DNA of 64,000 bases from Sedimentisphaerales bacterium (GCA_963663965.2 CAXXFK010000030.1:128001-192000), one strand, 5' to 3'. Shown: positions 878 to 63,862, counted from the first letter of the stretch. Program-made: numbers and translations. The notes: generated by a model from the letters alone, not told the origin.

Positions 878-1240
878 TCACACGAAGGCACGAAGCCACG
901 AAGATTAACAGCCGAAAAGGCGAACCACGAATTCACACGAATGGACACTAATATTAGATAAAGAATATATATTAAAAATACAATAATACTATATCAGGCT
1001 AGTATTGCACATAGGTGTAAAGCCGTAAAAAAAACAGCTAAACAGCCGATAGAACCACGAAGCGCCTTCGGCTTCACGAAGAGCGCCTGCGGCGCTACAC
1101 GAAGGGCCGGTGGCCTGGTTTAGAGTTAAGGATATCGATAGTTTGTTTTTGGGATGAATCATAAGGGACCGCGTTACTGAAAAAGATAAAAAAGGGTAAC
1201 AGCCGGTAGAACCACGGAATACACGGAACACACGGAAAAA
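878..1240 (+). repeat. Cluster of short triplet direct-repeat units (CACGAAG x3, CACGAAT x2, CACGGAA x3), mostly led by AACAGCC
   Basis: Examples: cacgaaggcacgaagccacgaag, aaccacgaattcacacgaat, accacggaatacacggaacacacggaa. Confidence 0.8.
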
Positions 1241-1409
1241 AATGCAATAGTAATAAAATAGATATATAATATATAATAACGTAATAGCGTGCGAGGCGTT
1301 GGCTGGTTTTGAGGTTAGAGGGCTTAATATTTTGTTTTTGGGATGAATCATTATGATTGACTCGATTAATGGGTATAGGTGTTCACATAGTCATCGCTTT
1401 GGAATTATG

Positions 1410-1557
1410 CTGCCCTTGCAGGGCGATAGCTGTCCCGGCGGGTTCAGACCCAGGGTTGCACTCGCTGCGCTCGTTTTCCCTCTGGGTTATGTTATAATGG
1501 CCCCGCCTGAGGCGGATCTTCGACCTCCGGGCCGTTTAGGTAACCGCCTTCGGCGGA
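1410..1557. repeat. REP-like hairpin elements
   Basis: gcccttgcagggc, cccaggg...ctggg, ccgcctgaggcgg and ccgccttcggcgg palindromes. CCTGAGGCGGATCTTCGAC recurs at about 26088, 30838, 34774 and 58495. Confidence 0.6.
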
Positions 1558-1604
1558 AACTATTTTTGTGTGTTCACTAACTAATGGGTTATGGTTTGTT
1601 GCTT

Positions 1605-2282
1605 TCATGGGTCATTCTTTGGTTGGTGGTGGCTGGTCTGGGACTGGCCGTTGGGGTAGCGGCGGATGAGGGTGTCGGGTTGGAGGTCATCGATGAGGTC
1701 GTCGCGGTGTGAGGCGAGGATGAAGCGGGTGTGGGACCGGCGTGACCATTGTCGGATGCGGTGGCAGAGTCCGGCGGCGGTGATGAGGTCGAGTGAGGCG
1801 GCGAATTCATCGGCGCAGATAACGGCGGGTTTGAAGCTCATGGCGCGGGCCAGTCGGAGGCGATCGAGTTCGCCGACGCTGAGGTTGGGTCGCAGCCAGA
1901 CGGCCGGTTCGCTGAGGCCGGCGAGGGTGAGGAACTGGAGGGCCTGGTCGAGCGGCAGGTGGTTGAAGCAGTCGGCGGGCGCGGCGCCGGAGGGAATGGA
2001 GATGGCGTTGAGGTCAACGAGCTGGCGCGGATCGGGCCAGGCGGTGTGCAGGTGGCGGAGGATGGCCTGGAAGGTGAGTGATTTGCCAGAGCCGCTGGGG
2101 CCGGTGAGGTAGACGATCTGGCCGGGGGACAGGCTGAAGGGTCGGGGCGGGGCCGGCTGGAAGGCGGGTTGGCGTTCTATGGGCAGCCCAAAATGGCGGG
2201 CCAGTTCGAGGCCGCGCGCGCTGAGAAATGGGGTATTTGTGTTATTGAGATCGGCGAGATTTATCGTGCATTGAGTTCCCAT
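1605..2282 (-). CDS. Stand-alone ABC-type ATPase (COG2401 ATPase-like, no permease nearby)
   Basis: Walker A GPSGSGKS, signature LSVGE, Walker B ICADEF, H-switch ASHR. Confidence 0.8.
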   Translation of the reverse strand: MGTQCTINLADLNNTNTPFLSARGLELARHFGLPIERQPAFQPAPPRPFSLSPGQIVYLTGPSGSGKSLTFQAILRHLHTAWPDPRQLVDLNAISIPSGAAPADCFNHLPLDQALQFLTLAGLSEPAVWLRPNLSVGELDRLRLARAMSFKPAVICADEFAASLDLITAAGLCHRIRQWSRRSHTRFILASHRDDLIDDLQPDTLIRRYPNGQSQTSHHQPKNDP

Positions 2283-2301
2283 GGTTTTCCTCCAAATATT
2301 T

Positions 2302-2730
2302 TCATCCGCATTGCTGGCGGGTGAGTGTGTCGAGTCGGTTCTGGATGGTTTCGATGCGGCGTCGGACTTCGTAGCTGCCGAGTTGTCGTTTTTGTGCGAT
2401 TTTGCGGTAGCCGAGGTTGAGCATGAAACTGTCGTAGGCGATCTGGCGGTCGAGGGGGTGGAACTGGTCCCGGTGGCGGATGATATCGATGTAGCGGCCG
2501 TGGATCAGGCGGCGGGAAAGGGATTTGATGCGGGAGGCGATGGTTTTTTCGGAGGCGTGCAGCAGGCCGGCCAGGGACCGGATGGGAATATGGTGGATGA
2601 GATGGGCCTCCATGAGGGTTCGTTCGTGGGGCTCGAGCCATTGCAGTCTGAGGCGGACGGCTTCGGTGAGATTGGGGCAGCGGCCGGGATTTCTGGCGGA
2701 TTCGACCGAGAAATTATCCAGATTTATCAT
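2302..2730 (-). CDS. Sigma-70 region-4-like tandem HTH protein
   Basis: LEPHERTLM...IRSLAGLLHASEKTIASRI and a second GYRKIAQKRQLGSYEVRRRI HTH. AGGAGGT RBS upstream. Confidence 0.6.
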   Translation of the reverse strand: MINLDNFSVESARNPGRCPNLTEAVRLRLQWLEPHERTLMEAHLIHHIPIRSLAGLLHASEKTIASRIKSLSRRLIHGRYIDIIRHRDQFHPLDRQIAYDSFMLNLGYRKIAQKRQLGSYEVRRRIETIQNRLDTLTRQQCG

Positions 2731-2788
2731 ATAACACCTCCTGTTTTATTGTTGCATATACCAATAACATATGATATAATATACTTAA

Positions 2789-2805
2789 CAGGAAACTATT
2801 TCCAG
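2789..2805. promoter_or_regulatory. Candidate operator palindrome in the divergent promoter region
   Basis: CAGGAAA-cta-TTTCCAG, one mismatch from a perfect inverted repeat. Confidence 0.35.
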
Positions 2806-2844
2806 GAAAAAATATTAGAAATGTATAAAATAATCTGTAATTAG

Positions 2845-2872
2845 TTGACAAGAAAACATTTTGGTGCATAAT
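2845..2872 (+). promoter_or_regulatory. Putative sigma-70 promoter for the repressor gene
   Basis: TTGACA-16 nt-CATAAT. Confidence 0.5.
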
Positions 2873-2969
2873 TTTATTTGAATAACTGGATTTTTAGTTC
2901 CTTGGGTTATTAAAATATGAATGAAGACGTTTGATCACTATTAACTGAAAAAAAATTTAACCGGAGGCG

Positions 2970-3764
2970 ATGGCCATGTCATTAGGATCGATGATTCGTA
3001 AGAAGCGTGAAGAAAAAGGTTTAACACTTGACGAGATGAGCCGGCGCACAGGCTACAGCAAGCCCTATATTTCAACTGTGGAGACGGGCCGGGTGAAAAA
3101 TCCGCCAGCGGATGAACTCTTGGTGAAGCTGGAAGAGATTCTGGAGTTTGATGACGGGACATTATTACACATTGCGCATATGGAAAAACTGCCGACGGAT
3201 ATCCGTCAGGCGTTTGAGGACAGTCAGGCGGAGAATGAGCACTGGCGCTCGTTGTTGAATGAGATGATCAGCAAGCAGCCTGAGCTGGGCAAGAAGATGA
3301 AGTCAGACAAGTTTTATGACAAGATTCTGAGACCGGACCAGAACTTTATCAAGATGGCGACGGCTGGCCGGATGGTGCCGGTGATTAACAAGGTCACCGC
3401 GGGTTATCCATTGGATTACGATGATATGGGCTATCCACCGGGCAGCGCGGATGATTATATCCGGTGCACCGACCTGCATGATCCGAACGCGTTTGCGGTG
3501 CGTGTAGTGGGTGATTCGATGGAGCCGAAGTATATAGAGGGAGATATTGTGGTGTTTTCACCGAACAGCCAGGTGGAGAATGGCGATGATTGCTTTATCC
3601 GGCTGACAGATCCTCATGAAACGACGTTTAAGCAGGTGTTTTTTGAGGATTCTGGTTTGATCCGGTTGCAGCCCCGGAACCATATTTATCCGCCGATGAT
3701 TTTGGAAGAGAGTAAAGTGAATGGAATCTGGAAGGCGGTGATCCGACAGGAACGACTGGACTGA
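2970..3764 (+). CDS. XRE-family HTH + S24 peptidase repressor (CI/LexA-like)
   Basis: N-terminal Cro/CI HTH, VTAG cleavage site (Ala-Gly), VVGDSMEP catalytic Ser, TTFKQ catalytic Lys. Confidence 0.9.
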   Translation: MAMSLGSMIRKKREEKGLTLDEMSRRTGYSKPYISTVETGRVKNPPADELLVKLEEILEFDDGTLLHIAHMEKLPTDIRQAFEDSQAENEHWRSLLNEMISKQPELGKKMKSDKFYDKILRPDQNFIKMATAGRMVPVINKVTAGYPLDYDDMGYPPGSADDYIRCTDLHDPNAFAVRVVGDSMEPKYIEGDIVVFSPNSQVENGDDCFIRLTDPHETTFKQVFFEDSGLIRLQPRNHIYPPMILEESKVNGIWKAVIRQERLD

Positions 3765-4104
3765 CCAGCGGGTGTTGTACCTGGGACACGTTGATCCATT
3801 TAAGCCCAATGGGAAAGAAGATTCCCGAACGCACGCCAGATAAATTTTTACGCGTGTAGAAGTTATATCACGGCCCAGCGGGCATATTCCCTGGTAAGCA
3901 GTATATAATTTCAGAGAGGTGGTTATTTATATTGACCGCCTGTAGGATTGACGATAAACTCCCAAGAGATCAGCGAGAGAGCGCCGTCAGGTCCGATAAC
4001 TTGTCGGCGTATTGAGTTGATTGTTATCAGAACAAAGTATATCAACGAGTTATAACTCCCGCCCAGGTTGCCTCAAGGTCAGTACGGCAGGGATAACAAG
4101 CTAT

Positions 4105-4968
4105 ATGAGTAAAAAACCGCATACCTCATTTTCTGAAGATTTCAGGATATTTTTCTTCAGAGGACTTGCTACCCTCCTGCCTACTATTCTTACGATATTC
4201 CTATTAATCAAGTGTTATGACTTTGTCCAAGTGAATATCAGCCGCCATATCACGGACGGATTGATCTGGTGTGTGGTGACGATCTGTGACAAGGCTGTTG
4301 CAGAGTATCCGAATCTGAGCAATGAGGAAATAAAAAAATATATTAACGTCGTCAAACCTCATGATTTCAATCCAAATGACGATAAAGATAAAACAGCCGT
4401 AAGGTTATGGACCTTGCGGCAAAAATGGAACCATGAGCCTCATTCGCTCGTAGGATTCGTACTGGCAATCATGCTGGTATATATTATCGGACGCCTGCTG
4501 GCGAGCTATCTGGGCCATAGTTTATGGTCCTTATTTGAGAAATCCGTGCAACAGGTGCCCGGATTCAAGCAAGTATATCCCTATATCAAGCAAGTAACAG
4601 ATTTTCTTTTTGGAGAAAATAAGATAGAATTTAACCGGGTAGTCGTAGTTCCCTACCCGCGTAAAGGACTGTGGTCGTTGGGCCTGGTGACAGGCGATGG
4701 CTTGAGCCATGTTTCGGAGAGTACTGGAGAGCAATATATAACGGTATTCATTCCGAGTTCCCCGACGCCCGTGACCGGTTATATTATCCAGGTGCCCAAG
4801 CATGAGGCGATCGACCTGCCGATCACGATCGAAGAGGCGATCCGCTTTACGGTAAGTGGCGGGGTGATATCGCCGGATCAGCCGCTGTTGAAGGGGCGTA
4901 GCAAGCCGATCCAGATCGACCCAGTCAAGACGGAACGCAATCCTGTAAATGAAGGAGATGACCCATGA
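4105..4968 (+). CDS. DUF502 membrane protein
   Basis: FFRGLATLLP start, V.YPRKG.W..G.VT and VFIPSSPTPVTGY motifs. Confidence 0.85.
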   Translation: MSKKPHTSFSEDFRIFFFRGLATLLPTILTIFLLIKCYDFVQVNISRHITDGLIWCVVTICDKAVAEYPNLSNEEIKKYINVVKPHDFNPNDDKDKTAVRLWTLRQKWNHEPHSLVGFVLAIMLVYIIGRLLASYLGHSLWSLFEKSVQQVPGFKQVYPYIKQVTDFLFGENKIEFNRVVVVPYPRKGLWSLGLVTGDGLSHVSESTGEQYITVFIPSSPTPVTGYIIQVPKHEAIDLPITIEEAIRFTVSGGVISPDQPLLKGRSKPIQIDPVKTERNPVNEGDDP

Positions 4969-5312
4969 TCGTAAAAATCACCGGCAAACACATGGAATTA
5001 ACGGACGCCATGAAGACCTATGCCGAGAAGAAAGTGGCCAAGATCATAAAATTTCATGATAAGGTTTCGGAAATCGAAGTGATTTTCGATGTGGAGGGTC
5101 AGAAGACCCATGTAGAATTGATCGTTTGTGTGGCGAATCATACCAAGCCGTTTGTGGTCACGACCAGTGACGAAGACGCATATGCCTGTCTGGACCTGGC
5201 GATCGACAAGATGGATCGTCAGATCGTCAAACACAAGGAGAAGGCGCGCAATCATAAGGGCAAAACCGGGGCTGGTGAAGCGGCCGCGGAAGTGCTCGAA
5301 TCGAAGGAATAA
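4965..5312 (+). CDS. hpf: Ribosome hibernation promoting factor (HPF/RaiA)
   Basis: ITGKHMELTDAMKTYAEKK...DAYACLDLAIDKMDRQIVKHKEK. Confidence 0.9.
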   Translation: MIVKITGKHMELTDAMKTYAEKKVAKIIKFHDKVSEIEVIFDVEGQKTHVELIVCVANHTKPFVVTTSDEDAYACLDLAIDKMDRQIVKHKEKARNHKGKTGAGEAAAEVLESKE

Positions 5313-5541
5313 GCCCTGGCGCGCCGGGGCTGTCTCAGGATCCGGCGCGGCAGGTGAGACATTGTCCGAGTCCGGGGTCGTAGAGACCCGGTTTCGGAGG
5401 GCGAGAGGCATCGGCCATGGACTCATGGCGTTGCTGGGCCCGCTGCTATAATAATTATTGTAATGACCTCAAAGGCGCATGCGTCTAACGGGGCGTTGAA
5501 CCTGTTCAATGGGCATTATTGTCCAGTGGAGTAAATGACCG

Positions 5542-6021
5542 ATGAAACTTTGTGATTTCATAGTAGCCGAGGCGATCGTGCCGGATTTGCAAGCGAGCAC
5601 GCGGGACGACGCCATTCGGGAGCTGGTGGGCCACCTGAAAGACGCCGGCAAGATCAGCGAAACAGATTTTGAAGATATCGTGAGCAAGCTCATCGAGCGG
5701 GAACGCCAGGGGAGTACGGGAATCGGCAAGGGAATCGCCGTGCCGCATATCAAGCATCCGGCGGTTACGCAGATCATCGGCACCATCGGCCGGAGCGCCG
5801 AAGGGATGGACTTTAATTCACTGGACAAGGCGCCGGTTTATTCCATCATGCTGCTGGTGAGTCCTCCGAATAATCCGGACAAGCATCTGGAAGCGATGGA
5901 GCGGTTGTTTTCGCATTTGCAGCGTGATATGTTCCGCAAGTTTCTGCGTCAGGCCGAAACCCAGCAGGAAATTGTCGATCTACTGAAGGAAGCTGACGAA
6001 TCGACGGACAGCGCGCTGTAG
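5542..6021 (+). CDS. PTS EIIA (Ntr/fructose-type) protein
   Basis: ERERQGSTGIGKGIAVPH phospho-His motif and DFNSLDKAPV. Confidence 0.9.
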   Translation: MKLCDFIVAEAIVPDLQASTRDDAIRELVGHLKDAGKISETDFEDIVSKLIERERQGSTGIGKGIAVPHIKHPAVTQIIGTIGRSAEGMDFNSLDKAPVYSIMLLVSPPNNPDKHLEAMERLFSHLQRDMFRKFLRQAETQQEIVDLLKEADESTDSAL

Positions 6022-6101
6022 CGGTCTGTCGGACGAGAGTCAGCGTGGCGAGATAAAGAACCCCGTGTCAAGCGGGGCGACCCATTAACCAAGAGGACCA
6101 C

Positions 6102-6377
6102 GTGGCCGCCGATACAAAAAAACTGGAGCGATTTGTCGAAGTAGGCATCGAAGACGGGCTGCATATGCGTCCGGCGATGAAGCTGGTGGACCGCGCGAAT
6201 GGATTTCGCAGCGAGATTACGGTTTCGTACAACGATCTATCGGTAGACGGCAAGAGCATCATGCAGGTGACCATGCTGGCGGCGACGAAGGGGACCCGGT
6301 TGTTAATTGTCGCGGAGGGTCCTGATGCCGCCGAGGCGCTGGAGGCCCTGGCGGCGATCATCGAGCACCCGGAATAG
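6102..6377 (+). CDS. ptsH: Phosphocarrier protein HPr
   Basis: GLHMRPA (His15) and DGKSIM (Ser46). GTG start with GAGGA RBS. Confidence 0.92.
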   Translation: MAADTKKLERFVEVGIEDGLHMRPAMKLVDRANGFRSEITVSYNDLSVDGKSIMQVTMLAATKGTRLLIVAEGPDAAEALEALAAIIEHPE

Positions 6378-6557
6378 CGCGGGAGCGGCGGCCGGGAGGA
6401 GGCATAGAGCAGAAAAGGAAATTCGGCATGGTTCAATCGATATTGAGCCACGAACCGGGACTGTCAGCGGGATTCGAGCCCGCGGCCCGGGGAGCCGTGA
6501 AGGAATCCGATACAGAACTTTTGCGACGCCACGGCGTCCACTGAAAAGCGAACCGCC

Positions 6558-8315
6558 ATGGAGATTATCAAGGGTATAGGCGTATCGCAGGGCGTGGCCA
6601 TCTGCCCGGCCGTGATACTTGAGACGGAAGACTTCAACATTCCGCACCGCACCGTGCCGGCCGCGAACGCGCGGCACGAGATACAATCTCTGCGCAAGGC
6701 GTTTCTGGACGCGACCCAGGAGGTGTCGGATTTACAGGTATCGCAGGCGGGCCTGCTGGACAGTTCGGTGAAGGACATTTTTGCGGTGCATCTGCACTTT
6801 TTGCGGGATCGCACCCTGCGCAAGCGGATGACGGATCTGATCGGTGAGAAGCATTATTCGGCGGAATACGCGGTGAGCGTGGTGATGCGGGATATTGCCA
6901 AGCATTTTGCCTCGGCGCGCGACCGGTATATTTCGGAACGCGCCAGCGATATTTTCGATATCGAGCGGCGTTTGATCCGTCATCTGACGGGTGAGCGTCG
7001 CAGCGACCTGCAGAACCTGACCGAGCAGGTGGTGATTGTGGCGCATGACCTGACGCCGACGCAGACGGCCCAGTTCAACAAGGAGCTGGTGAAGGGGTTT
7101 GCCACGGACGAGGGGGGCCGGACCTCGCATACGGCGATTGTGGCGCGTTCGCTGGGGATCCCGGCGGTGGTGGCGCTGGGCAATGTGACCGCATCGGTGA
7201 ACCTGGGGGACCGGGTGATCGTGGATGGCAATCGCGGGATTGTGATTGTCAATCCGGACCCGGCCACGCTGGACGATTACAAAAAGTATGTACAGACGAT
7301 CCGTCAGCATGAGCATGAGCTGGATGAAGTGGCGAAACTGCCGGCGGTGACGCTGGACGGTCAGTCGATCGAGTTGCTGGGGAATATCGAGTTTCCGAGC
7401 GAGTCGCAGATTGTCTTGAACAAGGGCGGCGCGGGGATCGGATTGTACCGGACGGAGTTTCTTTATCTGGAGGCCAACGAGGATCCAACGGAAGAGGACC
7501 ATTACCGGGCGTATGTGGATGTGCTGGAGGCGTTTGGCAAGCTGCCGGTGACGATCCGGACGATCGACCTGGGCGCGGATAAATTTACGCAGCAGCGGAG
7601 CGGATTGCCGGAGCGGAACCCGTTTCTGGGGTTGCGGTCGATCCGGTACTGTTTACAGAATCTGCCGATTTTCAAAACGCAGATCCGGGCGATATTGCGC
7701 GCGTCGGTCAAGGGTCAGGTAAAGATCATGTTCCCGCTGATCACGAACCTGCTGGAGGTGCGTCAGGCGAAATGGGTGGTGGCGGATGTGATGGAGGATC
7801 TGGAAGAGCAGGGGATCGAATTCGACACGGAGATCCCGATCGGGATCATGATCGAGACCCCGGCGGCGGCGCTGACGGTGGATCATCTGGCCGACGAGGT
7901 GGATTTCTTTTCGATCGGCACCAATGACCTGATTCAGTACACCCTGGCGGTGGACCGGGTGAATGAGAAGGTGGCATCGTTATACAGTCCGCTGCATCCG
8001 GCGATATTGATGCTGCTGGATAAGATCGCCAAGGCGGCGAACCGGGCCCGGATCGGGGTGAGCATCTGCGGGGAGATGGCGTCGGAATCGGAATTGATCC
8101 CGTTATTGATCGGGCTGGGCTTTGACACCTTGTCGGTGGCGCCGCCCATGATTCCCGAGGCGAAAAAGATCGTGCGTTCGGTGAATACCGAGTATTGCCG
8201 GCAGATCGCCCGGCGCGCGTTGACCTTTGATACCGATACACAAACCGTCAGCTATTTGCGCGAAGAGTTGCGCAAGATCCAGAACGGGGAAGTGGGGACC
8301 GAGGATACCTGCTGA
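6558..8315 (+). CDS. ptsI: Phosphoenolpyruvate-protein phosphotransferase (PTS enzyme I)
   Basis: GGRTSHTAI phospho-His, GIGLYRTEFL, ERNPFLGLRSIR, DFFSIGTNDL and ICGEMA. Confidence 0.95.
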   Translation: MEIIKGIGVSQGVAICPAVILETEDFNIPHRTVPAANARHEIQSLRKAFLDATQEVSDLQVSQAGLLDSSVKDIFAVHLHFLRDRTLRKRMTDLIGEKHYSAEYAVSVVMRDIAKHFASARDRYISERASDIFDIERRLIRHLTGERRSDLQNLTEQVVIVAHDLTPTQTAQFNKELVKGFATDEGGRTSHTAIVARSLGIPAVVALGNVTASVNLGDRVIVDGNRGIVIVNPDPATLDDYKKYVQTIRQHEHELDEVAKLPAVTLDGQSIELLGNIEFPSESQIVLNKGGAGIGLYRTEFLYLEANEDPTEEDHYRAYVDVLEAFGKLPVTIRTIDLGADKFTQQRSGLPERNPFLGLRSIRYCLQNLPIFKTQIRAILRASVKGQVKIMFPLITNLLEVRQAKWVVADVMEDLEEQGIEFDTEIPIGIMIETPAAALTVDHLADEVDFFSIGTNDLIQYTLAVDRVNEKVASLYSPLHPAILMLLDKIAKAANRARIGVSICGEMASESELIPLLIGLGFDTLSVAPPMIPEAKKIVRSVNTEYCRQIARRALTFDTDTQTVSYLREELRKIQNGEVGTEDTC

Positions 8316-8339
8316 CCGGCGAAGAACTATTAAAGGCAT

Positions 8340-8387
8340 GAGGAAAGCTCCCGACTGACTGAAAGCAGTCATGCGGGATCTTTCCTC
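8340..8387 (+). other. Long intergenic RNA stem-loop upstream of TIGR03936-rne
   Basis: Nested pairs GAGGAAAG/CTTTCCTC, TCCCG/CGGGA and GACTG/CAGTC. Confidence 0.5.
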
Positions 8388-8403
8388 CTGACCGTCCATT
8401 TTT

Positions 8404-9096: not shown

Positions 9097-9200
9097 GGAT
9101 GGAATGGGCCTGAAGGGCCAGGAAAATTTGAGTATAAGCCGGAATGCCGGCTTTGAACATAACACAAAATAAATGAAACGAAGTAAAGAAGACAACAATC

Positions 9201-54411: not shown

Positions 54412-54461
54412 AGCTGAATCCTGATAGTCTTATGTTATTTAATTTCTTGTTAATACTAAGG

Positions 54462-55842: not shown

Positions 55843-56567
55843 TGCGGGTCTATGTATGCAGTGATTTGCATGTGGAGTTTCATCCTGACGGTGGAGCAGA
55901 ACTTATAGGCTGCCGGTTACCCGAGGCTGACCTGATCCTGGTCGCGGGGGATCTGGCGAACGCCCGGTTGTTGCCGGAGGCATTGAAATTGCTGGCCAGG
56001 CGCTATCCCCAAGTGGTTTATGTTGCCGGGAACCATGAGTATTATGGATCGAACCGGGAAGAGGTCGCCTTGTTGCGGGAAGGTCTGCCGGGCAATATCG
56101 CCTGGCTGGAGAACGAGGTTATCGAGCTGAATGGTCTGTGTATCGCGGGTTGTACAATGTGGTTTGGACCGCAACCCCTGGAAGCCCGGTGCCTGGTAAA
56201 CGATTTTTACCGGATCGGTGGTCTGGGAGACTGGTATGTCGAGGCCAATCGTCGTTCGCTGGAATTTCTGGATCAGGTTGTGACGTCAAATACGATGGTG
56301 ATGACCCATCACGCGCCGAGTATTCAGAGTGTGGATCCGCTTTATCGCCATAAGCAGAGCACCGGTTTTTTTGTCTGCCCGGAGGCGGAGATGCTCATTG
56401 CCCGCTGTCAGCCGCCACTCTGGATTCACGGTCATACGCATCGGAGCGCCGACTATATGATCGGGGGTACGCGGATTTACTGTAATCCATATGGGTATCA
56501 TCACCGTGAGATGAATTCTCTGTTCCAATGGCAGGAAGGGGTGTTTGACTGGCAGGAATTAATATAA
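55842..56567 (+). CDS. Calcineurin-like metallophosphoesterase
   Basis: SDLH, AGD, GNHE, THHAP, HGHTH and NPYGY. Confidence 0.9.
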   Translation: MRVYVCSDLHVEFHPDGGAELIGCRLPEADLILVAGDLANARLLPEALKLLARRYPQVVYVAGNHEYYGSNREEVALLREGLPGNIAWLENEVIELNGLCIAGCTMWFGPQPLEARCLVNDFYRIGGLGDWYVEANRRSLEFLDQVVTSNTMVMTHHAPSIQSVDPLYRHKQSTGFFVCPEAEMLIARCQPPLWIHGHTHRSADYMIGGTRIYCNPYGYHHREMNSLFQWQEGVFDWQELI

Positions 56568-56677
56568 TATTTCGATGAAATGGGGTTGTAATATAAAACA
56601 ATTTATGGTATATCTAAGTTTTGAGTTGATAATCAAGTTAATAATCGAGGCGAAATAAAATATATCAGGGGATATTC

Positions 56678-58369
56678 ATGCGATCGGAAGCCTTACCCAC
56701 CCAGACTGAGATGATTGCCTATCTGGATCGTTATGTTCGAGGCCAGAAAACCACCAAGCAGGCTATTGCAACGGCTATTTATGAACACTACCTGGGCCAT
56801 GCCCTGAGCGAATCGGAGTCCGGCGGTTGTCGCGATTTCGGTCCTCAGCACATATTGGTTATCGGACCAACAGGCAGCGGAAAAACATATCTGATCCGCA
56901 AGTTGTCCGAGTATCTGAATGTGCCGATCGTTTTTGCCAGCGCCGCCAGTATGTCGGGAACCGGCTATGTGGGGTCCAAGCCGCAAACGTTTGTCCAGCG
57001 GCTGCTGCATATGCGCGGGATGGATCCCCGGGAGGCGGAGAAAGGGATCATTTTTCTGGATGAATTCGATAAAGTGCGTAAAGTGTCGGGCGAGTGGCGG
57101 GATGTGTCGGGTGAGGATGTTCAGAACAGTCTTTTGACGTTTCTGGATGGCGGGAAAACGCCCATTCCCACCGACCGGGAGGAGCGGGAGTTTGTGACGG
57201 TGGATGTCTCGAAAATACTGTTTATCTGTTCGGGTGCGTTTGTCGGTCTGACCGATATCGTCAGGCAGCGGTGCAACATCGCGGAACCGTTTGGATTCAA
57301 CCAGGATTCGGGGGCTGAAGGCAACGCTTCGGCGACGGATGATGAGATTCTGGCCAGGGTTGAGGATCAGGATGTGATTGATTTTGGATTCATTCCCGAG
57401 CTGATCGGCCGGTTTGGCGCAATAACCCGGTTACATCATCTGTCTGAAGAGGACCTGATTGCGATTCTGACCACGACGGAAGGTTCGATACTTCGCAAAC
57501 GCCAGGCGTTATTTGGGGTGCACGGCATCGAGCTGACCTATACGCCGGCCGCGTTGACGGCGATCGCCCGGAAGTCCATTGGCATGAATATCGGCGCGCG
57601 CGGGCTGAACCAGATCGTCTTGAAGTCGACTGACGCGGTGGAATGGCGTTTGCATGAATTGTATCAAGAGGGGGTGAGGCGGATCGAGATCGATGCGGAT
57701 GTGATCGACGGGACGGGCGAACCGCGTTTGTCAAACGACACCAGTGATCCGTCGGTCAGGCTGGAGCCAGTGGCGAACGAATTACGCGCCCGGGCGCTGG
57801 GCAAAGCGATACCCGCCGAGAAGTATATCGCGACGGATAAAGGTTTTATTACCAATACGTCCGGTTGGAGCAGGGCCAAGCTGTCTGAGGAACTGGAGAA
57901 GATAAAAGAAGAGCATCTGGACTGGCCCAATACGACGGGCAGCGCGAAAAAATGGTGGGAGGCGTTTGAAAAAGAAAACCAGCACCGGTTAGAACTGATC
58001 TATCGTCTGGCGGAGGAATTGCGGAACCGCAAGGCCACGATAACGGAATTCTTCCTGGCGTATGTCTATTCCAATACGGACAATATTCAGGGTAATTTGT
58101 ATTATCTGGATTATACCCGGCTGAAAAAGGAAGAAGAGCGGAAGAGGAAAGAGGCCTTAAACAATAAGCAGCGTTTTCATACCGGCGAAACGGTGCCTGG
58201 GGGGGAGGCCGGCAGTTATTGCTTTGGCGGTTATTGCGACAGCGATCAGGCGGTCGATCCGGGAGATGAAGAGCAGGGGATTACGCTTGATGAGGGTGAC
58301 GAGTTTCCTGCGAGTTCGTCCGGATTGGATTGCTGGTGGGAGAAGGTGGCTGATGATGTCCCATTTTAG
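56678..58369 (+). CDS. ClpX-like AAA+ ATPase lacking the N-terminal zinc domain, with extra C-terminal domains
   Basis: LDRYVRGQ, GPTGSGKT, GYVG, IFLDEFDK, DVSGEDVQ, PFGF, FIPELIGR and GARGL. Confidence 0.85.
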   Translation: MRSEALPTQTEMIAYLDRYVRGQKTTKQAIATAIYEHYLGHALSESESGGCRDFGPQHILVIGPTGSGKTYLIRKLSEYLNVPIVFASAASMSGTGYVGSKPQTFVQRLLHMRGMDPREAEKGIIFLDEFDKVRKVSGEWRDVSGEDVQNSLLTFLDGGKTPIPTDREEREFVTVDVSKILFICSGAFVGLTDIVRQRCNIAEPFGFNQDSGAEGNASATDDEILARVEDQDVIDFGFIPELIGRFGAITRLHHLSEEDLIAILTTTEGSILRKRQALFGVHGIELTYTPAALTAIARKSIGMNIGARGLNQIVLKSTDAVEWRLHELYQEGVRRIEIDADVIDGTGEPRLSNDTSDPSVRLEPVANELRARALGKAIPAEKYIATDKGFITNTSGWSRAKLSEELEKIKEEHLDWPNTTGSAKKWWEAFEKENQHRLELIYRLAEELRNRKATITEFFLAYVYSNTDNIQGNLYYLDYTRLKKEEERKRKEALNNKQRFHTGETVPGGEAGSYCFGGYCDSDQAVDPGDEEQGITLDEGDEFPASSSGLDCWWEKVADDVPF

Positions 58370-58569
58370 CGCCCCTAAAAAATGAGTTTTCTACTACGAC
58401 CGGCTGCCAAAGTCGCCCGCTGCGTTCTCGGGGCCCAACATCCTCGACACCCCATAGAAAAGTTGCCTGCGGGAGTTTGATCCCTGCGGCCCTCCTGAGG
58501 CGGATCTTCGACCTTGCTGACTCCATTTTCGCCCGGTCTCACTACAGAAATCATTTTGTCAGGCACTCT
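58368..58569. mobile_element. MITE-like element with imperfect ~37-bp terminal inverted repeats
   Basis: Left agcgcccctaaaaaatgagttttctactacgaccgg versus reverse complement of the right end agagtgcctgacaaaatgatttctgtagtgagaccgg. Confidence 0.55.
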
Positions 58570-58787
58570 TAGAAAAAAAATGATGACTTATGCTGTCAGA
58601 AGCATTAAACTGCCTTAAGTGCCTGATCCGGCAATGCCGGTTTCCGAAAAGGGCACAGATGCCATTGGCTCACTATAAGATAAGGTGGCCATTTTGCGAA
58701 AAAGTTTTTTTGTAAGAGATTGGCAAGACAGGGTTTTTCAACGACTTGTCAGGTCCTCTTAGAAAAATTCAATACAGGAGTATTCCT

Positions 58788-59579
58788 ATGACCGATTCCT
58801 ATATTTATCCCGATGCCTCCGACGCAATTACATTGAAGATGATAGATACCCATGAGCCCAGGCCCGGTTACTGGGCGCAAAGCGAATCTGTTATCATAGA
58901 CAAATTAAGAGACTATTGTAATCAGCATATGGGTGACAGGCGGGATTTGACGTTGCTGGACATCGGCGGGGGCATGGGTCGTTTGTCGGTGGTATTGCAG
59001 GATCTGTTTTCTCGAATCGTTTTGCTGGAGCCGGATATTACCCGATTGCAGCAAGCCGAAGCGGAGATCGCGTCAAAGGGGTTGGGGGAGAAATTTGAGT
59101 TTGTGAATTTACTGGCGGAAAATTATCATCCTGGGATTCAATTCGATGTTATCTTGAACAGTCATGTTCTTCAACATATTCCGGTTGATTGTAGTTCGAA
59201 GCTGCTGGACACCATGTGTCAGTTGCTGAAGCCGGGCGGAGTGGGAGCGGTATTAACGACACATGCCAAATGCACCTATTTTGTTCGTCAGTCGATAATC
59301 GATAACCAGGTCATCGAGCAACCGATCGAGCAGGCGTTGTTCGATTCGCTGTGTTATCACACGAAAGATGAATTACCCATACGCTTTTTTGGCCAGGATG
59401 ACCTGCTTGCCCTGTTGTCGCGGCATGGATTTAACGTTTCAACGTTTTGGGTTTATCATTGTCTGGAAAATTTTGGCGACGCGGAAACTTATATAGCAAG
59501 AGACGAGCTGGTTAATGCCATTCCAGTTTTGCAGACGAATCTGGGGCGTGACTGTTTTGCGATCGTAACAAAAGCCTAG
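58788..59579 (+). CDS. Class I SAM-dependent methyltransferase
   Basis: LLDIGGGMGR, FDVILNSHVLQH and LLKPGG. AGGAG RBS. Confidence 0.88.
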   Translation: MTDSYIYPDASDAITLKMIDTHEPRPGYWAQSESVIIDKLRDYCNQHMGDRRDLTLLDIGGGMGRLSVVLQDLFSRIVLLEPDITRLQQAEAEIASKGLGEKFEFVNLLAENYHPGIQFDVILNSHVLQHIPVDCSSKLLDTMCQLLKPGGVGAVLTTHAKCTYFVRQSIIDNQVIEQPIEQALFDSLCYHTKDELPIRFFGQDDLLALLSRHGFNVSTFWVYHCLENFGDAETYIARDELVNAIPVLQTNLGRDCFAIVTKA

Positions 59580-59806
59580 AGGGTGGTTTGGTTCAATGAT
59601 CATATTGAATGACGTTCGAAATGATTAAGGGGTGTCGCTGACGATGGTTGGCGGGCATCGTGAGTATGGTTTCGGGTGTGGCCCGTCGCCCGGCCAGTAG
59701 CCGGTTCGGGCGCAAGGAAATGATTCCGGAGGGTTTCTGTTGCTCGTTGGTGTTGATTGTTCCGAAGTTTAAGGTTTTGTCTCAAGTTCATTAAGGAGTT
59801 GGCTCA

Positions 59807-61333
59807 ATGGAATCGATCATTGAATTTGATGCTATTTTTACATTTGGCATTTGTTTTGCCATCGAGGATGATACGTTAATCCATAATTTCATGACCCGGA
59901 ATAATGACCGAGCGAAACAAAGCGCACAAAACGAGGCCATTAAACAGATCCGAGATACATTCAACTTTACCTTTCCGGCCTATCATCATTTATTCGGCAA
60001 AGAGGTCTTGCAGATATTTAAATATGAATCGGACCTTTCGCTTGAGTTACCTGAATCAGGCGAGAGCGAGAATCCAAGAATTCTTAAAGGCAGTATATAT
60101 TTTCTGAGTGTTAAGAATCCCAATGTGATCTGTATCTTATTGACATTGGGTTCTCCGGAAACTGGTAAAATGTATTTATCAACCGATGAGATCATAAAAG
60201 TATATAAAAACGTGCGATCTTCTGTCGATGGTTATCGTTATTCCATAATCCATGAGGGTCAGGTTCTGGATACCTATGATACCCTGTATAAGTTATTGGA
60301 AAAACTCAAAACCGAACCATCGGATAATAATTCTCAAGGCGAAACAGAAGCCTGGAAGATTCCATCAGAAGAAATTCTTTGCGAACGAAACGCGCATCAG
60401 CAGGATATCATAGATTTTCATTGTCTGGAGATCCGAAAAATACGAAAATCCAAGACTGAGACCGCCTCTGCAATTGAGGCGCAGGATTATCCCCAGCAAT
60501 TATATGGTCTGTTATCGGGAGACGAAGGATGGCGTTTTGTTCCAATCGAAACCGCCCAAAAAAGAACCGAACCCGAATGGCAGGTCCGGGATTTTTGTAT
60601 CATCATTCCTTTCGGACGGGCCTTGTTGAGCCTGAATGACAAACCCGATGCCTATATCGATTTTCAGCGGGCGAATAATGTGGGTCATCAAACGTATTTT
60701 GGGATGAGAAGCGAGATAGCCTGTCTCGATCATTGCGCATTACCATTGCTGTTGAACGCGTTGTTTCGATTGTCGCCGATTATTCGTTCTTACGATGAAA
60801 TTAGAAATATGCGATTATTCGAAATCGATGGATTTAAAGATCCGGTAAAAGGCAAGAAAAAGAAAGCTAAATTGAAGGTGTTAAAACGTCGCCAGGCGGA
60901 CATCTACCGGTTATTGCAGATTCTGGAGATCGATAATATCCGTGAGCTGGATTTGCTGGAAGAAATTATTGTCGAAAATGTCGGATTACAATCTTACGCG
61001 GATGCTTTAAATCGGGACATTGAGAATCTACATGCGGCGATAAAACAGGAGGAAGATAAGCGAACTAATTTAATTATGATGGCATTGACAGTCATTATGT
61101 TATTTTCTACATTGATAATGCTGGTTCCGATTCTCATTCAAGTGTATAGTCTGTTGACCGAAAAACCAAGCCAAACCAATTCTGAGTCATCGTCCAATAC
61201 GCCATGTGTCGCCCCCATAGACGAGCGCGAAAATGATTCCGGGTTAAGAGTAGATGAAAATGGTCAGCCGGAAATCGGTCTTCCCATAAAAGCTGCCGAT
61301 CCAGGCACTGTCGAACCAGCCGGCGGGGATTGA
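59807..61333 (+). CDS. Hypothetical protein with a coiled coil and a C-terminal TM helix (loosely CorA-like layout)
   Basis: Soluble N-terminal region, helical stalk, then RTNLIMMALTVIMLFSTLIMLVPILI. AAGGAG RBS. Confidence 0.6.
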   Translation: MESIIEFDAIFTFGICFAIEDDTLIHNFMTRNNDRAKQSAQNEAIKQIRDTFNFTFPAYHHLFGKEVLQIFKYESDLSLELPESGESENPRILKGSIYFLSVKNPNVICILLTLGSPETGKMYLSTDEIIKVYKNVRSSVDGYRYSIIHEGQVLDTYDTLYKLLEKLKTEPSDNNSQGETEAWKIPSEEILCERNAHQQDIIDFHCLEIRKIRKSKTETASAIEAQDYPQQLYGLLSGDEGWRFVPIETAQKRTEPEWQVRDFCIIIPFGRALLSLNDKPDAYIDFQRANNVGHQTYFGMRSEIACLDHCALPLLLNALFRLSPIIRSYDEIRNMRLFEIDGFKDPVKGKKKKAKLKVLKRRQADIYRLLQILEIDNIRELDLLEEIIVENVGLQSYADALNRDIENLHAAIKQEEDKRTNLIMMALTVIMLFSTLIMLVPILIQVYSLLTEKPSQTNSESSSNTPCVAPIDERENDSGLRVDENGQPEIGLPIKAADPGTVEPAGGD

Positions 61334-61399
61334 CTTTGTGTCTGTGAAATAATCGGTTCAGGAATTTTCTGTCGAGAGTTATCTTGATTTTTTATTCGT

Positions 61400-63637
61400 T
61401 TATTTCGATTCGGTCCAGGGGGCGTTTTGGAAATGGGTGACGATCATTTGCTGGACGGGGATGAGGTAGCGGACCATGCCGTAGTGGTCGGTTTTGAACC
61501 AGCGGATCTCGGCGGCGGCGGTGTCGGCCAGTCGGCGGGCGCATTGGGCGGGGATGATGGGGTCCTGGGAGCCGTTGACCATGAGCAGGCGGGTGTGGGT
61601 GAGGCGATCGGCGAAGTTGACCGGTTCGATAGTGGCCAGCAGGCGGCGCAGATCGGACAGGGAGATGTTGTTCTGTTGCAAGAGTAATTTGAACTGTTTG
61701 ACTTCATTGCTGTCGGAATTCAGGATGGAGACCAGATCGCCGCCGGCCAGCAGGGTAAAGACACGTGGGAACCGGCCATCGACCCCGGCGGCCAGGGCCG
61801 CGATACAGCCGCCCAGGCTGGTACCGCAGAGTCCGATGCGATCGGCGTCGACGTGAGGCAGGGCGGCCAGCACCTGAGCGGTGCGCTGGACATCCATAAC
61901 AGCCTGCCGGACGGCGGAAACCAGGGTGTTGGGGTCGTCGGTCATTCTTTTGAGCTCGACGGTATTGGTGGCGGAACGCTGGCCGTAACAGGGCAAGACC
62001 ATGATGCAGGCGTTGACCCCGGAATGGGCCAGGGTGTTGGCGATGATTCTGGAGGCGGTCATGGAGCCATCGAGGATATCCAACAGGATCACCGCCGGGC
62101 GGGATTCGGCGCCCTGGCAGTCGTAATATTCGCAATAGACGGTGTTGTGCTGCGGGACGGCGCTGTGCCAGGATGAAGGGAAAGAGAGCTGATGGACCTG
62201 ATAGGCGCCCAGGTCGTGGGTGGGTTTGATCTGGTATTCGAAGGGGGCGGGCTGGACGCGATAGACACTGAGCAGCCGGTCCTGTTGGGGATTGGCGGCG
62301 GGGGGCAGGGCGCGGAAGCCGGCTGGTGAGACGGAACCGGTGATAGTTTGGGCATCTTCCAGGCGGGTAGGCTGGGAGGCGTTGCCTGTTTCCTGCCGGG
62401 GTCTGGGGGGGACTGCAGTCACACCCTCGGGAGTTTGAGCGGGGATCATTTTCAGCAGGGTGGGTAACTCGTAGGCGTAATAGGGTTGATAACAGGCGGC
62501 GAAGTTGTCGTTTTCGGGAGCGATCGCGTTGGCGACCCAGAGCCGCAGGGTCTGGGGGGCGAATAACACCCGATGCAGGCAACTGGTCATGGCGATGGGG
62601 CGGTTCATCAGGTCGAGGGCGTGGTCCAGGTCGATCTTGCCGTATTGGGCCTGCACCCGGGCGGCGAGGTGTTCATAACGATCGCCGGCGCTGAGCAGGA
62701 CGGCGTCTTTGACGGGATGGGGCAGTTGGGGATGGGATTGGCCTGGGGCGACGACTTCGAAGCGGTCGGGGGCACAGGCCAGGCCGCGGGCGTCGGGCAG
62801 TTTGCCATCGCTGATGACGTAATAATATTCGCAGGTGCGCGGGGTGGAACGAAAGATCTCGACGGCCTGGTTGAGTGAATCGGCCTCTTCGAGCGCCTTG
62901 CGCACCAGGAAAGACATGGGCATGCCATCCCAGTTGCCTTCGCCGCGGCCGCCCATTTCGCCGATGGCGACCTGGCGGGCGTTCATGCCGGTGACCGAGC
63001 CGATAAAGCCGGCGTAACCGATGGTGATAAACGGGGTCTGGCCGTCCGGCTGGGCGACGGTGATGAGGGCGTGCTGCTGGAGGCCGACTTCGGTCATGTA
63101 ATCGAGGATGCGGCCGTGATAGAGTGTGCCGTCGCTGGTGGCGGAGGCAGAGAGGGCAAATCCGCTGCAATGGAACAGTTCGGGGAAAATATTGCCCCAC
63201 TGGATTTCGTTGAGCGGGATGCCGGAGCCTGCGGCCAGTCCGGCCATTTCATCCAGATAGCGCTGGGGAATAAACGGGCGGGTGCGCTGCCAGGCCTGTT
63301 CGATGGAGCCGTTGAAATAGTCATCGTAGCGGTTGGAATCGGCGGCGCGGGCGACGGTGAGGACCGTTTTCATCATGGCCTGGATGGGGCCGGAGAGTAA
63401 TTTGCCCTGTTGATAGCCCATTTCCCAGGGACTGCCGGCGATGAGCAGGACACGCTGGCCTTCGATTTCGAGCAGGGCGCCGCGGCCGCAACGGTCCAGG
63501 ACTTTGGGCTGTCCGGTTGGGATGATGGTGGCGGCCGGAAGCGGCCGGTTCGCCAGGGCGATCAGGCATCCGGCGATCAGGATGGTCAGGATGCGCAGGG
63601 TCCGGGGGATAGCTACCGATGGGGTGTTCGTAGTCAT
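61400..63637 (-). CDS. Secreted C45 (Ntn-hydrolase) peptidase fused to an alpha/beta hydrolase
   Basis: FHCSGF nucleophile, HGRILDY and TGMN, then GTSLGG, DPIIP and TDHY. Confidence 0.78.
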   Translation of the reverse strand: MTTNTPSVAIPRTLRILTILIAGCLIALANRPLPAATIIPTGQPKVLDRCGRGALLEIEGQRVLLIAGSPWEMGYQQGKLLSGPIQAMMKTVLTVARAADSNRYDDYFNGSIEQAWQRTRPFIPQRYLDEMAGLAAGSGIPLNEIQWGNIFPELFHCSGFALSASATSDGTLYHGRILDYMTEVGLQQHALITVAQPDGQTPFITIGYAGFIGSVTGMNARQVAIGEMGGRGEGNWDGMPMSFLVRKALEEADSLNQAVEIFRSTPRTCEYYYVISDGKLPDARGLACAPDRFEVVAPGQSHPQLPHPVKDAVLLSAGDRYEHLAARVQAQYGKIDLDHALDLMNRPIAMTSCLHRVLFAPQTLRLWVANAIAPENDNFAACYQPYYAYELPTLLKMIPAQTPEGVTAVPPRPRQETGNASQPTRLEDAQTITGSVSPAGFRALPPAANPQQDRLLSVYRVQPAPFEYQIKPTHDLGAYQVHQLSFPSSWHSAVPQHNTVYCEYYDCQGAESRPAVILLDILDGSMTASRIIANTLAHSGVNACIMVLPCYGQRSATNTVELKRMTDDPNTLVSAVRQAVMDVQRTAQVLAALPHVDADRIGLCGTSLGGCIAALAAGVDGRFPRVFTLLAGGDLVSILNSDSNEVKQFKLLLQQNNISLSDLRRLLATIEPVNFADRLTHTRLLMVNGSQDPIIPAQCARRLADTAAAEIRWFKTDHYGMVRYLIPVQQMIVTHFQNAPWTESK

Positions 63638-63757
63638 AAGCACTCCTTTGATCTGGGAGTTATGTCAGGTTGACAGGGCGCTTGCCGGGTTGATAAATTG
63701 TTATTAATAAGTAATACCATCTGGCGGGATGGATGTTACAGAGTATGTTGAGCGCTA

Positions 63758-63862
63758 AACACAGGGCGGTCAAGCCGCAATCAAGAAAATATATCTCACA
63801 CGAAGTCACGAAGCCACTAAGGTTAACAGCCATTTAGACAAGATCACAGGATTGACAGGATA
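63758..63862 (+). repeat. Triplet repeat unit cluster
   Basis: gggcggtcaagccgc hairpin, cacgaagtcacgaagccactaag and ttaacagcc...acaagatcacaggattgacaggat. Confidence 0.8.

What the first reader, a model, noticed from the sequence alone, without database searches (positions are those of the whole stretch)
878..63862. Strand-biased arrays of heterogeneous triplet repeats sharing a (TAT)AAC(A/G)GCC leader
Seen: clusters at 878-1240, 11530-11775, 12390-12630, 14930-14990, 25971-26346, 27993-28100, 30200-30570, 34010-34490 and 63758-63862. Units are 2-3 imperfect 7-10-nt direct repeats of several distinct types: CACGAAG, CACGAAT, CACGGAA, CGCAGAT, ACAGGAT, CACAGAG and CGCAAAG. Many are preceded by AACAGCC/AACGGCC (about 907, 1041, 1198, 11531, 11603, 11732, 12397, 26038, 26140, 28024, 30206, 34309, 63825). 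All read on the + strand even between minus-strand genes. Different types are strung together with A-rich linkers. They are neither CRISPR nor palindromic REPs. They sit at the borders of accessory DNA and directly upstream of both GxxExxY genes. Inference: a dispersed element family, possibly binding or cutting sites or RNAs for the GxxExxY nuclease-fold protein, acting as landing pads for gene gain. I know of no functional description.
Basis: partly seen in the sequence, partly recalled or inferred. Interest (0 to 1): 0.78.

Follow-up and report, generated by a model that had tools for sequence, protein, structure and literature searches.

The report
Strand-polarised orphan GxxExxY repeat chains
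The repeats are left-over end pieces of a widespread small-nuclease gene cassette that have been strung into chains and copied around the genome. They nearly all point along a saw-tooth DNA strand bias which, in this bacterium and a relative, looks like the footprint of several replication start sites on one chromosome, something not yet shown for a natural bacterium.

Summary
The repeats are real: 16 arrays on + and 0 on − in the window's intergenic DNA, against 0.03 expected. They are the 'arms' that normally bracket GxxExxY genes as inverted pairs. Among 70 close relatives of the window gene, 35 have both arms, all 35 with matching words. This scan found that cassette before on other DNA. 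New here: the arms are orphaned (3 of 173 have an inverted partner), chained into copied mosaics and targeted by an IS110. They read on the locally G-rich strand in 78 of 84 gaps. That skew is a saw-tooth. In single-contig relative G004, nine copies of a ~190-bp element sit at nine abrupt C-to-G flips, skew declines steadily between them, and arms point away (42 of 43 within 50 kb). In G000 the up-steps fall at a 26-copy orphan ORF (18 of 21). Best reading: fork-coupled spreading of orphan arms in chromosomes with several origin-like sites. The origins are inferred from skew only. Relative G019 is a counter-example. The leader is lineage-specific, accessory-border enrichment failed, and the second 'GxxExxY gene' is a 14-codon stub.

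The parts
878..1240 (+). Chain of orphan arms: CACGAAG x3, leader, CACGAAT x3, hairpin-interrupted CACGAAG arm, leader, CACGGAA x3
11530..11775 (+). Chain: CACGAAG arm, CACGAAT arm with nested hairpin, CATGAAG-type arm, leader, CACGGAA x3 (upstream arm of the GxxExxY gene)
11886..12262 (+). GxxExxY gene (TIGR04256 122 bits, PF13366); natural ATG at 11,886 out of frame, in-frame GTG at 11,942; no inverted downstream arm
12390..12630 (+). Leader plus CACGGAA x3, then CGCAGAT x3, both forward where an inverted arm would normally stand
12633..12674 (+). 14-codon stub resembling the start of another GxxExxY subfamily (compare L024, L030)
12711..14550 (-). ISNCY/IS5-like insertion sequence, seven further near-identical copies in G000
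14930..14990 (+). Hairpin-plus-arm unit (short hairpin, CACGAAG arm) joined directly to the end of an Rhs-core remnant
25971..26355 (+). Chain ending in the first word of a CATGAAG arm
26350..27990 (+). IS110 element (ORF 26,441-27,526) inserted inside a CATGAAG arm; ends approximate
27993..28100 (+). Rest of the split CATGAAG arm, leader, CGCAGAT arm, hairpin module
29937..30600 (+). 5' part of a RAYT-like Y1 gene (codons 4-51) followed by a five-arm chain; the rest of the broken gene lies at 31,030-31,448
31463..32207 (+). Intact RAYT-like Y1 gene (31,510-32,193) between short inverted ends; NF047646 63 bits, below the cut-off of 80
33748..34490 (+). Second copy of the RAYT 5' part plus chain (94% identical over 468 bp to the first), with nested hairpins
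63758..63862 (+). Commonest mosaic unit: hairpin, CACRAAG arm, leader, ACAGGAT arm
1..64000 (+). G-rich top strand regardless of gene direction (fourfold-site GC skew +0.42 on 28 + genes, +0.48 on 14 - genes); skew then falls steadily to zero about 90 kb beyond the window

Best explanation
Step 1 (shown): each array is one arm of the inverted pair that brackets GxxExxY genes; different words belong to different subfamilies. Step 2 (shown): in this lineage the arms lost gene and partner and were joined into mosaics. The mosaics were copied as multi-module units, landed in pre-existing genes and were themselves invaded by hairpin modules and an IS110. Step 3 (shown): chains read on the locally G-rich strand, largely whichever way neighbouring genes run. 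Step 4 (inferred): the G-rich strand is the leading strand, and new copies enter with fixed polarity because copying is coupled to the fork, most likely through single-stranded DNA on the lagging-strand template, as IS200/IS605 elements do. The candidate enzymes are the resident RAYT-like Y1 protein or the GxxExxY nuclease; neither is shown. Step 5 (skew shape shown, cause inferred): the skew is a saw-tooth with abrupt C-to-G flips at dispersed repeated elements and steady decline between them, the pattern expected when several sites start forks in both directions. The arms are passive polarity markers that pile up near those sites.
For: Arms: 48 of 70 relatives have a forward upstream arm, 46 of 70 an inverted downstream arm, 35 both, 35 of 35 with matching words. 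Solo: 3 of 173 paired within 1.5 kb. Copying: 68 of 93 chains share >=100 bp at >=80% with another chain, and 1,379 of 1,379 such matches are in the same orientation; insertion into Rhs and RAYT genes. Polarity: 78 of 84 gaps, 46 of 51 50-kb blocks, 24 of 26 convergent or divergent gaps, 18 of 20 young copies. All 16 RAYT-like tblastn hits, on 6 contigs, are co-oriented with the G-rich strand, the direction reported for IS200 (PMC3971601, passages; PMC5027513, passages). The 16S rRNA and L2 genes lie on the G-rich strand in G000 (2 of 2) and G004 (3 of 3). Saw-tooth in G004: nine element copies at nine flips, two of them not used to find the element; residual skew falls from +0.075 to -0.082 between copies, rho -0.73 on 378 tiles, negative in all 9 intervals, 1 of 2,000 shifts as strong. 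It has the same sign on + and - genes, and gene strand follows the global halves (58-60%) not the teeth (51%). G000: steps above 0.1 are 9 up and 0 down among 1,061 overlapping positions; up-steps at 18 of 21 copies of the orphan ORF, 0 of 20,000 random draws as large.
Against: No coverage or replication data; origins rest on base composition alone. G019 (same genus as G004) has an ordinary two-half skew in 18 windows, 37 of 85 arrays paired, and solo arms 8 G-rich vs 14 C-rich, so polarity is not universal. Where both flanking genes face against the inferred fork the bias is only 6 vs 3 in G000, though 11 vs 1 in G004. Across phyla solo arms follow a gene-independent skew estimate in only 11 of 17. 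The element at the flips differs between genomes and no initiator or DnaA-box cluster was found there (0.15 vs 0.11 boxes per kb; dnaA genes lie elsewhere). In G000, 11 ORF copies sit in same-sign skew, and on the ORF-downstream side the skew points away in only 11 of 23. One weak G004 flip near 3.65 Mb has no element and one core motif at 2.841 Mb is not at a flip. In G004 the G-rich strand is also relatively A-rich, not the classic G+T pattern. Y1 genes occur in unpolarised G019 too, and in the window a chain broke a RAYT gene. No filled-versus-empty site comparison was possible.
Confidence: 0.55

Rival explanations
1. Orientation is filtered afterwards by selection: arms in one orientation relative to the fork are harmful (for example nicked by the cognate nuclease on the leading-strand template) or useful as polar signals like Chi or KOPS.
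For: In the cassette at C30:34,062 the arm on the G-rich strand is intact and its partner is degenerate, while the cassette in near-zero skew (C42) keeps both arms. Arrays are densest where skew is strongest: 5, 15, 11, 30, 43 loci by quintile.
Against: Unrelated repeats are polarised too, some in the opposite sense (375 of 653 repeated intergenic 14-mers are >=90% polarised), which points to a general insertion process. G019 tolerates both orientations.
Confidence: 0.17
2. The saw-tooth is real but does not come from chromosome origins. A local two-sided mutational process (in-situ replication of integrated elements, repair or transfer tracts) or old nested inversions made it, and the arms follow it.
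For: The flip-site elements are lineage-specific repeats without an initiator; a two-half gene-orientation pattern persists in G004; aberrant skews can have other causes (PMC3269012 and 10.1101/808410, passages).
Against: Inversions or mis-joins give equal numbers of up and down steps and carry genes along; observed are abrupt up-steps, gradual declines over 170-900 kb, and gene strands that ignore the teeth. Resection from breaks would give the opposite sign under a deamination model (inference).
Confidence: 0.3
3. Mutational erosion: arms arrive in both orientations, but the pyrimidine-rich orientation decays faster under the strong purine-favouring strand bias.
For: Chains are purine-rich on the G-rich strand (A 33%, G 26%); the skew is very strong (fourfold GC skew 0.3-0.6 near the elements); one partner arm is degenerate.
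Against: Young copies (>=93% identical over >=150 bp) are already polarised 18 of 20; inverted partners are missing even at 60% score (3 of 173); a 4.2-kb duplicate at 98% keeps the same relation to skew.
Confidence: 0.08
4. Transcription sets the direction: an unpaired pyrimidine-rich arm in the transcript would act as a terminator-loading signal and is purged.
For: 54 of 62 gaps between same-direction genes have the array in sense; 3 of the 6 C-rich-strand exceptions are in sense between genes facing against the fork; 12 of 18 in sense across phyla.
Against: Arrays antisense to both neighbours still follow the skew: 6 vs 3 in G000 and 11 vs 1 in G004; 24 of 26 in convergent or divergent gaps.
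Confidence: 0.08
5. The arms themselves launch one-way synthesis (nick and extend) and so create the skew.
For: Skew peaks within about 10 kb of arrays, 0.06-0.08 vs 0.04 farther off; the G004 element heads a chain.
Against: The peak is symmetric, with no step at the array; long strongly skewed stretches have no arrays; one G004 element in either orientation gives a two-sided flip.
Confidence: 0.05

Closest known systems
REP/BIME/REPIN elements with RAYT (TnpA-REP) (10.1101/279083, passages; PMC3333891, search listing only)
   Same: Dispersed intergenic mosaics of short modules, tied to a small nuclease gene and used as IS110 targets (REP targeting stated in PMC3971601). One module here is a short hairpin with a conserved 5' foot, and a RAYT-like gene is nearby.
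   Different: The arms are phased direct repeats, not palindromes, lack GT[AG]G, are not in inverted doublets here, and belong to a PD-(D/E)XK-family gene, not an HUH enzyme.
IS200/IS605 single-strand transposons (PMC5027513, PMC3971601; passages)
   Same: [quoted passage not shown]
   Different: Chains carry no transposase and no paired end hairpins; the 3' ends are variable; mobility was not shown.
Inverted-arm GxxExxY cassettes
   Same: Same words, same gene family, subfamily-specific words; confirmed here.
   Different: Here the arms are orphaned, chained across word types, linked by a lineage-specific leader and polarised.
Multi-origin skew patterns: archaeal chromosomes, proposed bacterial cases (PMC3269012, passages; PMC4403523, search listing), human skew N-domains (recalled, not read)
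   Same: Abrupt upward skew jumps with decline between them.
   Different: A bacterium; about nine sites in one 4.6-Mb contig, each with one copy of a conserved element; no adjacent initiator gene. PMC7174701 (passages) states that all bacterial chromosomes studied so far use a single origin.
23S rRNA intervening sequences carrying a four-helix-bundle ORF (recalled; named in earlier scan notes)
   Same: The intact cassette is an ORF inside a long stem.
   Different: Not in rRNA; orphan arms cannot form the stem.

Membership tests
REP/REPIN-RAYT | Palindromic hairpin unit | tested here: not met
   Four arrays/units fold no better than shuffles; only the small nested modules are hairpins.
REP/REPIN-RAYT | 5' GT[AG]G tetranucleotide at the hairpin foot | tested here: not met
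   The hairpin module has a CAG-type foot in 34 distinct contexts, not GTAG or GTGG; canonical foot from 10.1101/279083.
REP/REPIN-RAYT | Units in inverted doublets | tested here: not met
   3 of 173 arrays have an inverted partner.
REP/REPIN-RAYT | Cognate RAYT gene flanked by the repeats | tested here: inconclusive
   A RAYT-like gene (63 bits, cut-off 80) has chains within 2.5 kb at 3 of its 5 full-length loci, but has its own inverted ends, and chains broke other copies.
IS200/IS605 | Orientation along the replication fork | tested here: met
   78 of 84 gaps on the G-rich strand; leading strand inferred from skew.
IS200/IS605 | TnpA gene and left and right end hairpins with a fixed target tetranucleotide | tested here: not met
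   Chains have no ORF; the 5' junction is sharp but 3' ends vary.
IS200/IS605 | Single-stranded circular intermediate | not testable with these tools
   Only assembled contigs of one study were available.
CRISPR array | Identical 23-55 nt repeats with unique spacers of regular length | tested here: not met
   7-nt words at 8-11 nt period, 2-3 copies, recurring linkers; no Rfam hit.
GxxExxY inverted-arm cassette | Phased 7-nt words matched to the gene subfamily | tested here: met
   Relatives of the window gene use CRCG[AG]A[AT] words in 44 of 48 upstream arms; the set from the order uses mostly CACAGAG, CACAGAT, ACAGGAT. No tree was built.
GxxExxY inverted-arm cassette | Two inverted arms around an intact gene | tested here: not met
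   The window gene has the upstream arm only and an out-of-frame start.
Bacterial oriC (for the flip-site elements) | C-to-G skew switch | tested here: met
   9 of 9 G004 copies; up-step at 18 of 21 G000 ORF copies.
Bacterial oriC (for the flip-site elements) | DnaA-box cluster, often beside dnaA | tested here: not met
   7 boxes in 47 kb near vs 207 in 1,839 kb far (box consensus recalled); dnaA genes more than 100 kb from the G004 elements.
Bacterial oriC (for the flip-site elements) | Initiates replication | not testable with these tools
   No genome-wide depth or nascent-strand data.

The most novel reading that the evidence does not exclude
Some members of this bacterial family replicate one chromosome from about ten dispersed, DnaA-box-poor start sites marked by lineage-specific repeated elements. 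The orphan GxxExxY arm chains spread by a fork-coupled route and record the local fork direction. This would be a natural multi-origin bacterial chromosome with named candidate origin sequences.
Probability: 0.45. Interest if true: 0.95.

Novelty: categorically new. Interest (0 to 1): 0.82.

Why it matters
GxxExxY (PF13366) is listed as of unknown function (PMC3424549, passage). Its arms give it a concrete substrate, here with an orientation to test. More important, the polarity exposes a saw-tooth strand skew with a conserved element at each flip. Single-origin replication is the stated rule for bacterial chromosomes (PMC7174701), and earlier claims of exceptions rested on irregular skew plots (PMC3269012). 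Nine defined ~190-bp sites make that open question directly testable. Even if they are not origins, a two-sided mutational gradient over hundreds of kb from a short repeat needs an explanation. It also matters wherever GC skew is used to judge assemblies or growth rates.

Tried and rejected
Rfam: no hit. Accessory-border enrichment: not significant. Leader as family signature: rejected. Co-occurrence across genomes could not discriminate: arrays in 41 of 41 genomes, PF13366 in 33 of 41. A step in skew at arrays: none. One origin element shared across genomes: the G004 core was found in 1 of 25 family genomes; the G000 ORF family has 27 matches in G000, 1-3 in 8 of 40 relatives and none in G004, G019 or G023; a G023 GC-rich repeat has 29 matches in G023 and one marginal match elsewhere. 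The apparent flip in G023 locus L196 overlaps two IS genes and was not counted. Function of the orphan ORF P0001: no Pfam, HGGxSTG at E 0.45, Atlas neighbours all hypothetical, 1,062 unnamed homologues; model pLDDT 74 matched only generic helical hairpins (best Z 7.4; no viral match at E<=0.001). No RNA holder listed; contigs of two runs of one sample cover the stretch laid but give no strand or level. ProPhylo (PMC3226654), recalled as a possible description of the repeats, has none of the four terms in its main text. Literature searches for a description of the arms or of this skew pattern in the lineage found none; subscription journals and preprint supplements were not searchable. No GxxExxY tree was built. 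G004 was sampled at 1.89 of 4.59 Mb; further gap-filling could not be fetched, so three flips (1.62, 1.93, 4.29 Mb) are placed only to within about 5-40 kb by skew.
Full report
Setting. The window is G000:C30:128,001-192,000, a 7.24-Mb assembly in 42 contigs, 94.6% complete, 5.4% contaminated. I infer a Planctomycetota (Phycisphaerae-like) host; no call names it. Genes were called with my own codon-model script, which misses some AT-rich genes.

Observation. All nine clusters and all 13 leaders are as described; the intergenic window DNA has 16 arrays on +, none on -, against 0.03 by chance. An unbiased count of tandem 7-mer pairs puts ACAGGAT, CACGGAA, CGCAGAT and CACGAAG at 65-310 times expectation. 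I dropped 8 arrays of four chance-like word types and kept 173 in 93 gaps. Only one GxxExxY gene lies in the window, with an out-of-frame natural start; the second is a 14-codon stub. Enrichment at low-GC borders was not significant.

What the arrays are. In relatives, GxxExxY genes sit between inverted copies of these arrays (output cut, about 20 of 30 loci seen). Counted: in 25 of 30 loci from the order (5 too short or not located), 16 have a forward upstream arm, 16 an inverted downstream arm, 13 both. In 70 of 80 metagenomic loci 63-74% identical to the window gene, the numbers are 48, 46 and 35, with matching words in 35 of 35. The window subfamily uses CRCG[AG]A[AT] words, as the window gene does. 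One exact CACGGAA triplet occurs in many phyla and in archaea; of 77 matches away from contig edges (67 dropped), 38 are paired, 39 solo and 6 lie beside a GxxExxY gene. Earlier notes of this scan describe the same cassette; I had seen the inverted arms before reading them. The leader precedes 0 of 64 gene-adjacent arms elsewhere and is a local linker.

What is different here. Only 3 of 173 arrays have an inverted partner within 1.5 kb. Arms of different types are chained with a recurring order: hairpin-CACRAAG 29 times, CACRAAG-ACAGGAT 22, CGCAGAT-CACGGAA 20. Of 93 chains, 68 share at least 100 bp with another. The hairpin unit has a sharp 5' junction and variable 3' ends. It follows a truncated arm word in 8 of 34 contexts against 109 of 15,649 controls, and at 14,930 it abuts an Rhs-core remnant. 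A chain interrupts a RAYT-like gene after codon 51. Both G000 copies of an IS110 lie inside a CATGAAG-type arm after its first word. A 66%-identical IS110 in G023 lies inside a CACGAAA arm at 6 of 6 left and 5 of 5 right junctions found. So 'landing pad' holds for these elements.

Polarity. With skew measured on coding positions only and corrected for gene direction, 78 of 84 gaps have the array on the G-rich strand (8 in weak skew and 1 mixed set aside). By 50-kb block it is 46 of 51 (4 against, 1 tied); with both neighbours along the skew 47 of 48, convergent or divergent 24 of 26, both against 6 of 9; young copies 18 of 20. Other repeats are polarised as well, some in the opposite sense, while IS ends are not. 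In G004 solo arms follow the skew in 51 of 53 gaps by fourfold-site skew, 11 of 12 where both genes face the other way. G023 gives 32 of 35 with 0 of 57 arrays paired, in windows centred on arrays. G019 is the counter-example: 37 of 85 paired, solo 8 vs 14. Across phyla the signal is weak: 15 of 16 by raw skew, 11 of 17 by a gene-independent estimate.

The skew is a saw-tooth. In G004 (one contig, 98% complete) I read 100 windows, the first 20 chosen at arrays, 9 at suspected flips, the rest spread out; 41% of the contig. Skew flips abruptly from C-rich to G-rich at about ten places and declines gradually between. Comparing the flip windows revealed a shared ~190-bp gene-less element with TGTACA palindromes. 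A genome search found nine copies, all at flips noted beforehand, two of them not used in the discovery; a weak flip near 3.65 Mb has none. Between copies the residual skew falls from +0.075 to -0.082, with negative slope in all nine intervals. The flip has the same sign on + and - genes, and gene strand does not follow the teeth (51%) but weakly follows the two global halves (58-60%); this argues against transcription and against inversions. Of 73 array clusters (first 100 of 108 matches listed), 47 lie within 50 kb of an element (21% expected), and 58 of 68 point away from the nearest, 42 of 43 within 50 kb. G000 shows the same shape in pieces: 12 up-flips and 6 weaker down-flips, and a steady decline along the window's contig, rho -0.92. 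Seven of the 12 up-flips have within 6 kb a copy of a 26-copy, 279-aa orphan ORF; 18 of 21 measurable copies show an up-step, and 22 of 24 array gaps within 60 kb point away from it. The ORF faces against the local skew in 11 of 11 same-sign cases, so it may mark rather than make these sites. Its function stayed unknown.

Mechanism. Shown: arm identity, orphaning, copying, nesting, polarity, saw-tooth. Inferred: the G-rich strand is the leading strand (consistent with 5 of 5 rRNA and L2 genes); copies enter through the fork, as IS200/IS605 elements do on the lagging-strand template (PMC5027513; PMC3971601); the flips are replication start sites. All 16 RAYT-like hits lie along the skew, which makes that enzyme a candidate, but Y1 genes also occur in G019. 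I put the whole chain of inference at 0.55 and true multi-origin replication at 0.45. The main rivals are a non-origin cause of the saw-tooth and selection on orientation.

Comparison with what is known. The chains work like BIME/REPIN mosaics and orient like IS200/IS605, but fail the defining tests of both, and of CRISPR. 'GxxExxY' occurs in 3 papers of the library, once each in the 2 listed, neither of which I opened; family accessions gave only a table row 'Unknown'. Papers: passages read of PMC3424549, PMC3226654 (no term found), PMC3269012, PMC5027513, 10.1101/279083, 10.1101/808410, PMC7174701, PMC3971601; all others were seen as search listings only; no supplements were read. Human N-domains, rRNA intervening sequences and the DnaA-box consensus are recalled. 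Multiple bacterial origins have been proposed from skew plots, with cautions, and a 2020 review still gives one origin as the rule.

Verdict. The repeats are real and belong to an undescribed cassette family already seen by this scan. Their orphaned, polarised state and the saw-tooth skew it follows are new, surprising and testable. The strongest saw-tooth evidence comes from a relative, not from the window, and no direct replication data exist.

Noticed in passing
G004:C1, nine sites (209.7k, 713.7k, 1617.1k, 1928.1k, 2270.2k, 2881.6k, 3818.3k, 4119.9k, 4293.6k); loci L303-L312: Gene-less ~190-bp element with TGTACA palindromes, one copy at each abrupt skew flip; candidate replication start sites. 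The palindrome recalls antitoxin operators (from memory, untested).
   Followed up: partly
G000, 26 copies, e.g. L302:1501-2340 (P0001): 279-aa orphan ORF with a repeated AT-rich upstream region, enriched at skew up-steps and facing against the local skew; large unnamed family (1,062 homologues).
   Followed up: partly
G000, 15 copies, one at C30:123,967-124,527 just left of the window: A second multi-copy orphan ORF family, lying on the C-rich strand in most copies.
   Followed up: no
window 26,350-27,990; G000 C23; G023 loci L187, L188, L194, L196: An IS110 lineage that inserts inside GxxExxY arms after the first word, with a different word in each genome.
   Followed up: partly
window 27,983-32,216: 4.2-kb segment (Rhs C-terminal Tox-REase-7 gene, downstream ORF, chain, RAYT-like gene) duplicated at 98% on contig C11 in the same relation to skew.
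   Followed up: partly
window 45,647-47,365: DarT-like gene with an adjacent macrodomain gene, a DarTG-type toxin-antitoxin pair.
   Followed up: no
window 15,021-19,271: 1,416-aa AT-rich ORF with only a weak nSTAND3 hit (E 7e-4); possibly a defence NTPase.
   Followed up: no
window 35,128-36,581: Carboxylesterase split into two ORFs.
   Followed up: no
window about 25,860-25,900: A different dispersed module (TTGGGTTCGTT type), on the G-rich strand in 95 of 122 intergenic sites genome-wide.
   Followed up: partly
G023, e.g. L196:8,828-9,375 and 12,499-13,021: GC-rich ~500-bp repeat heading arm chains, several times as divergent pairs 4-5 kb apart.
   Followed up: partly
G000 C22:56,564 and C17:23,591; also G004, G019, G023, G031: Two dnaA paralogues in each of the five genomes searched.
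   Followed up: no
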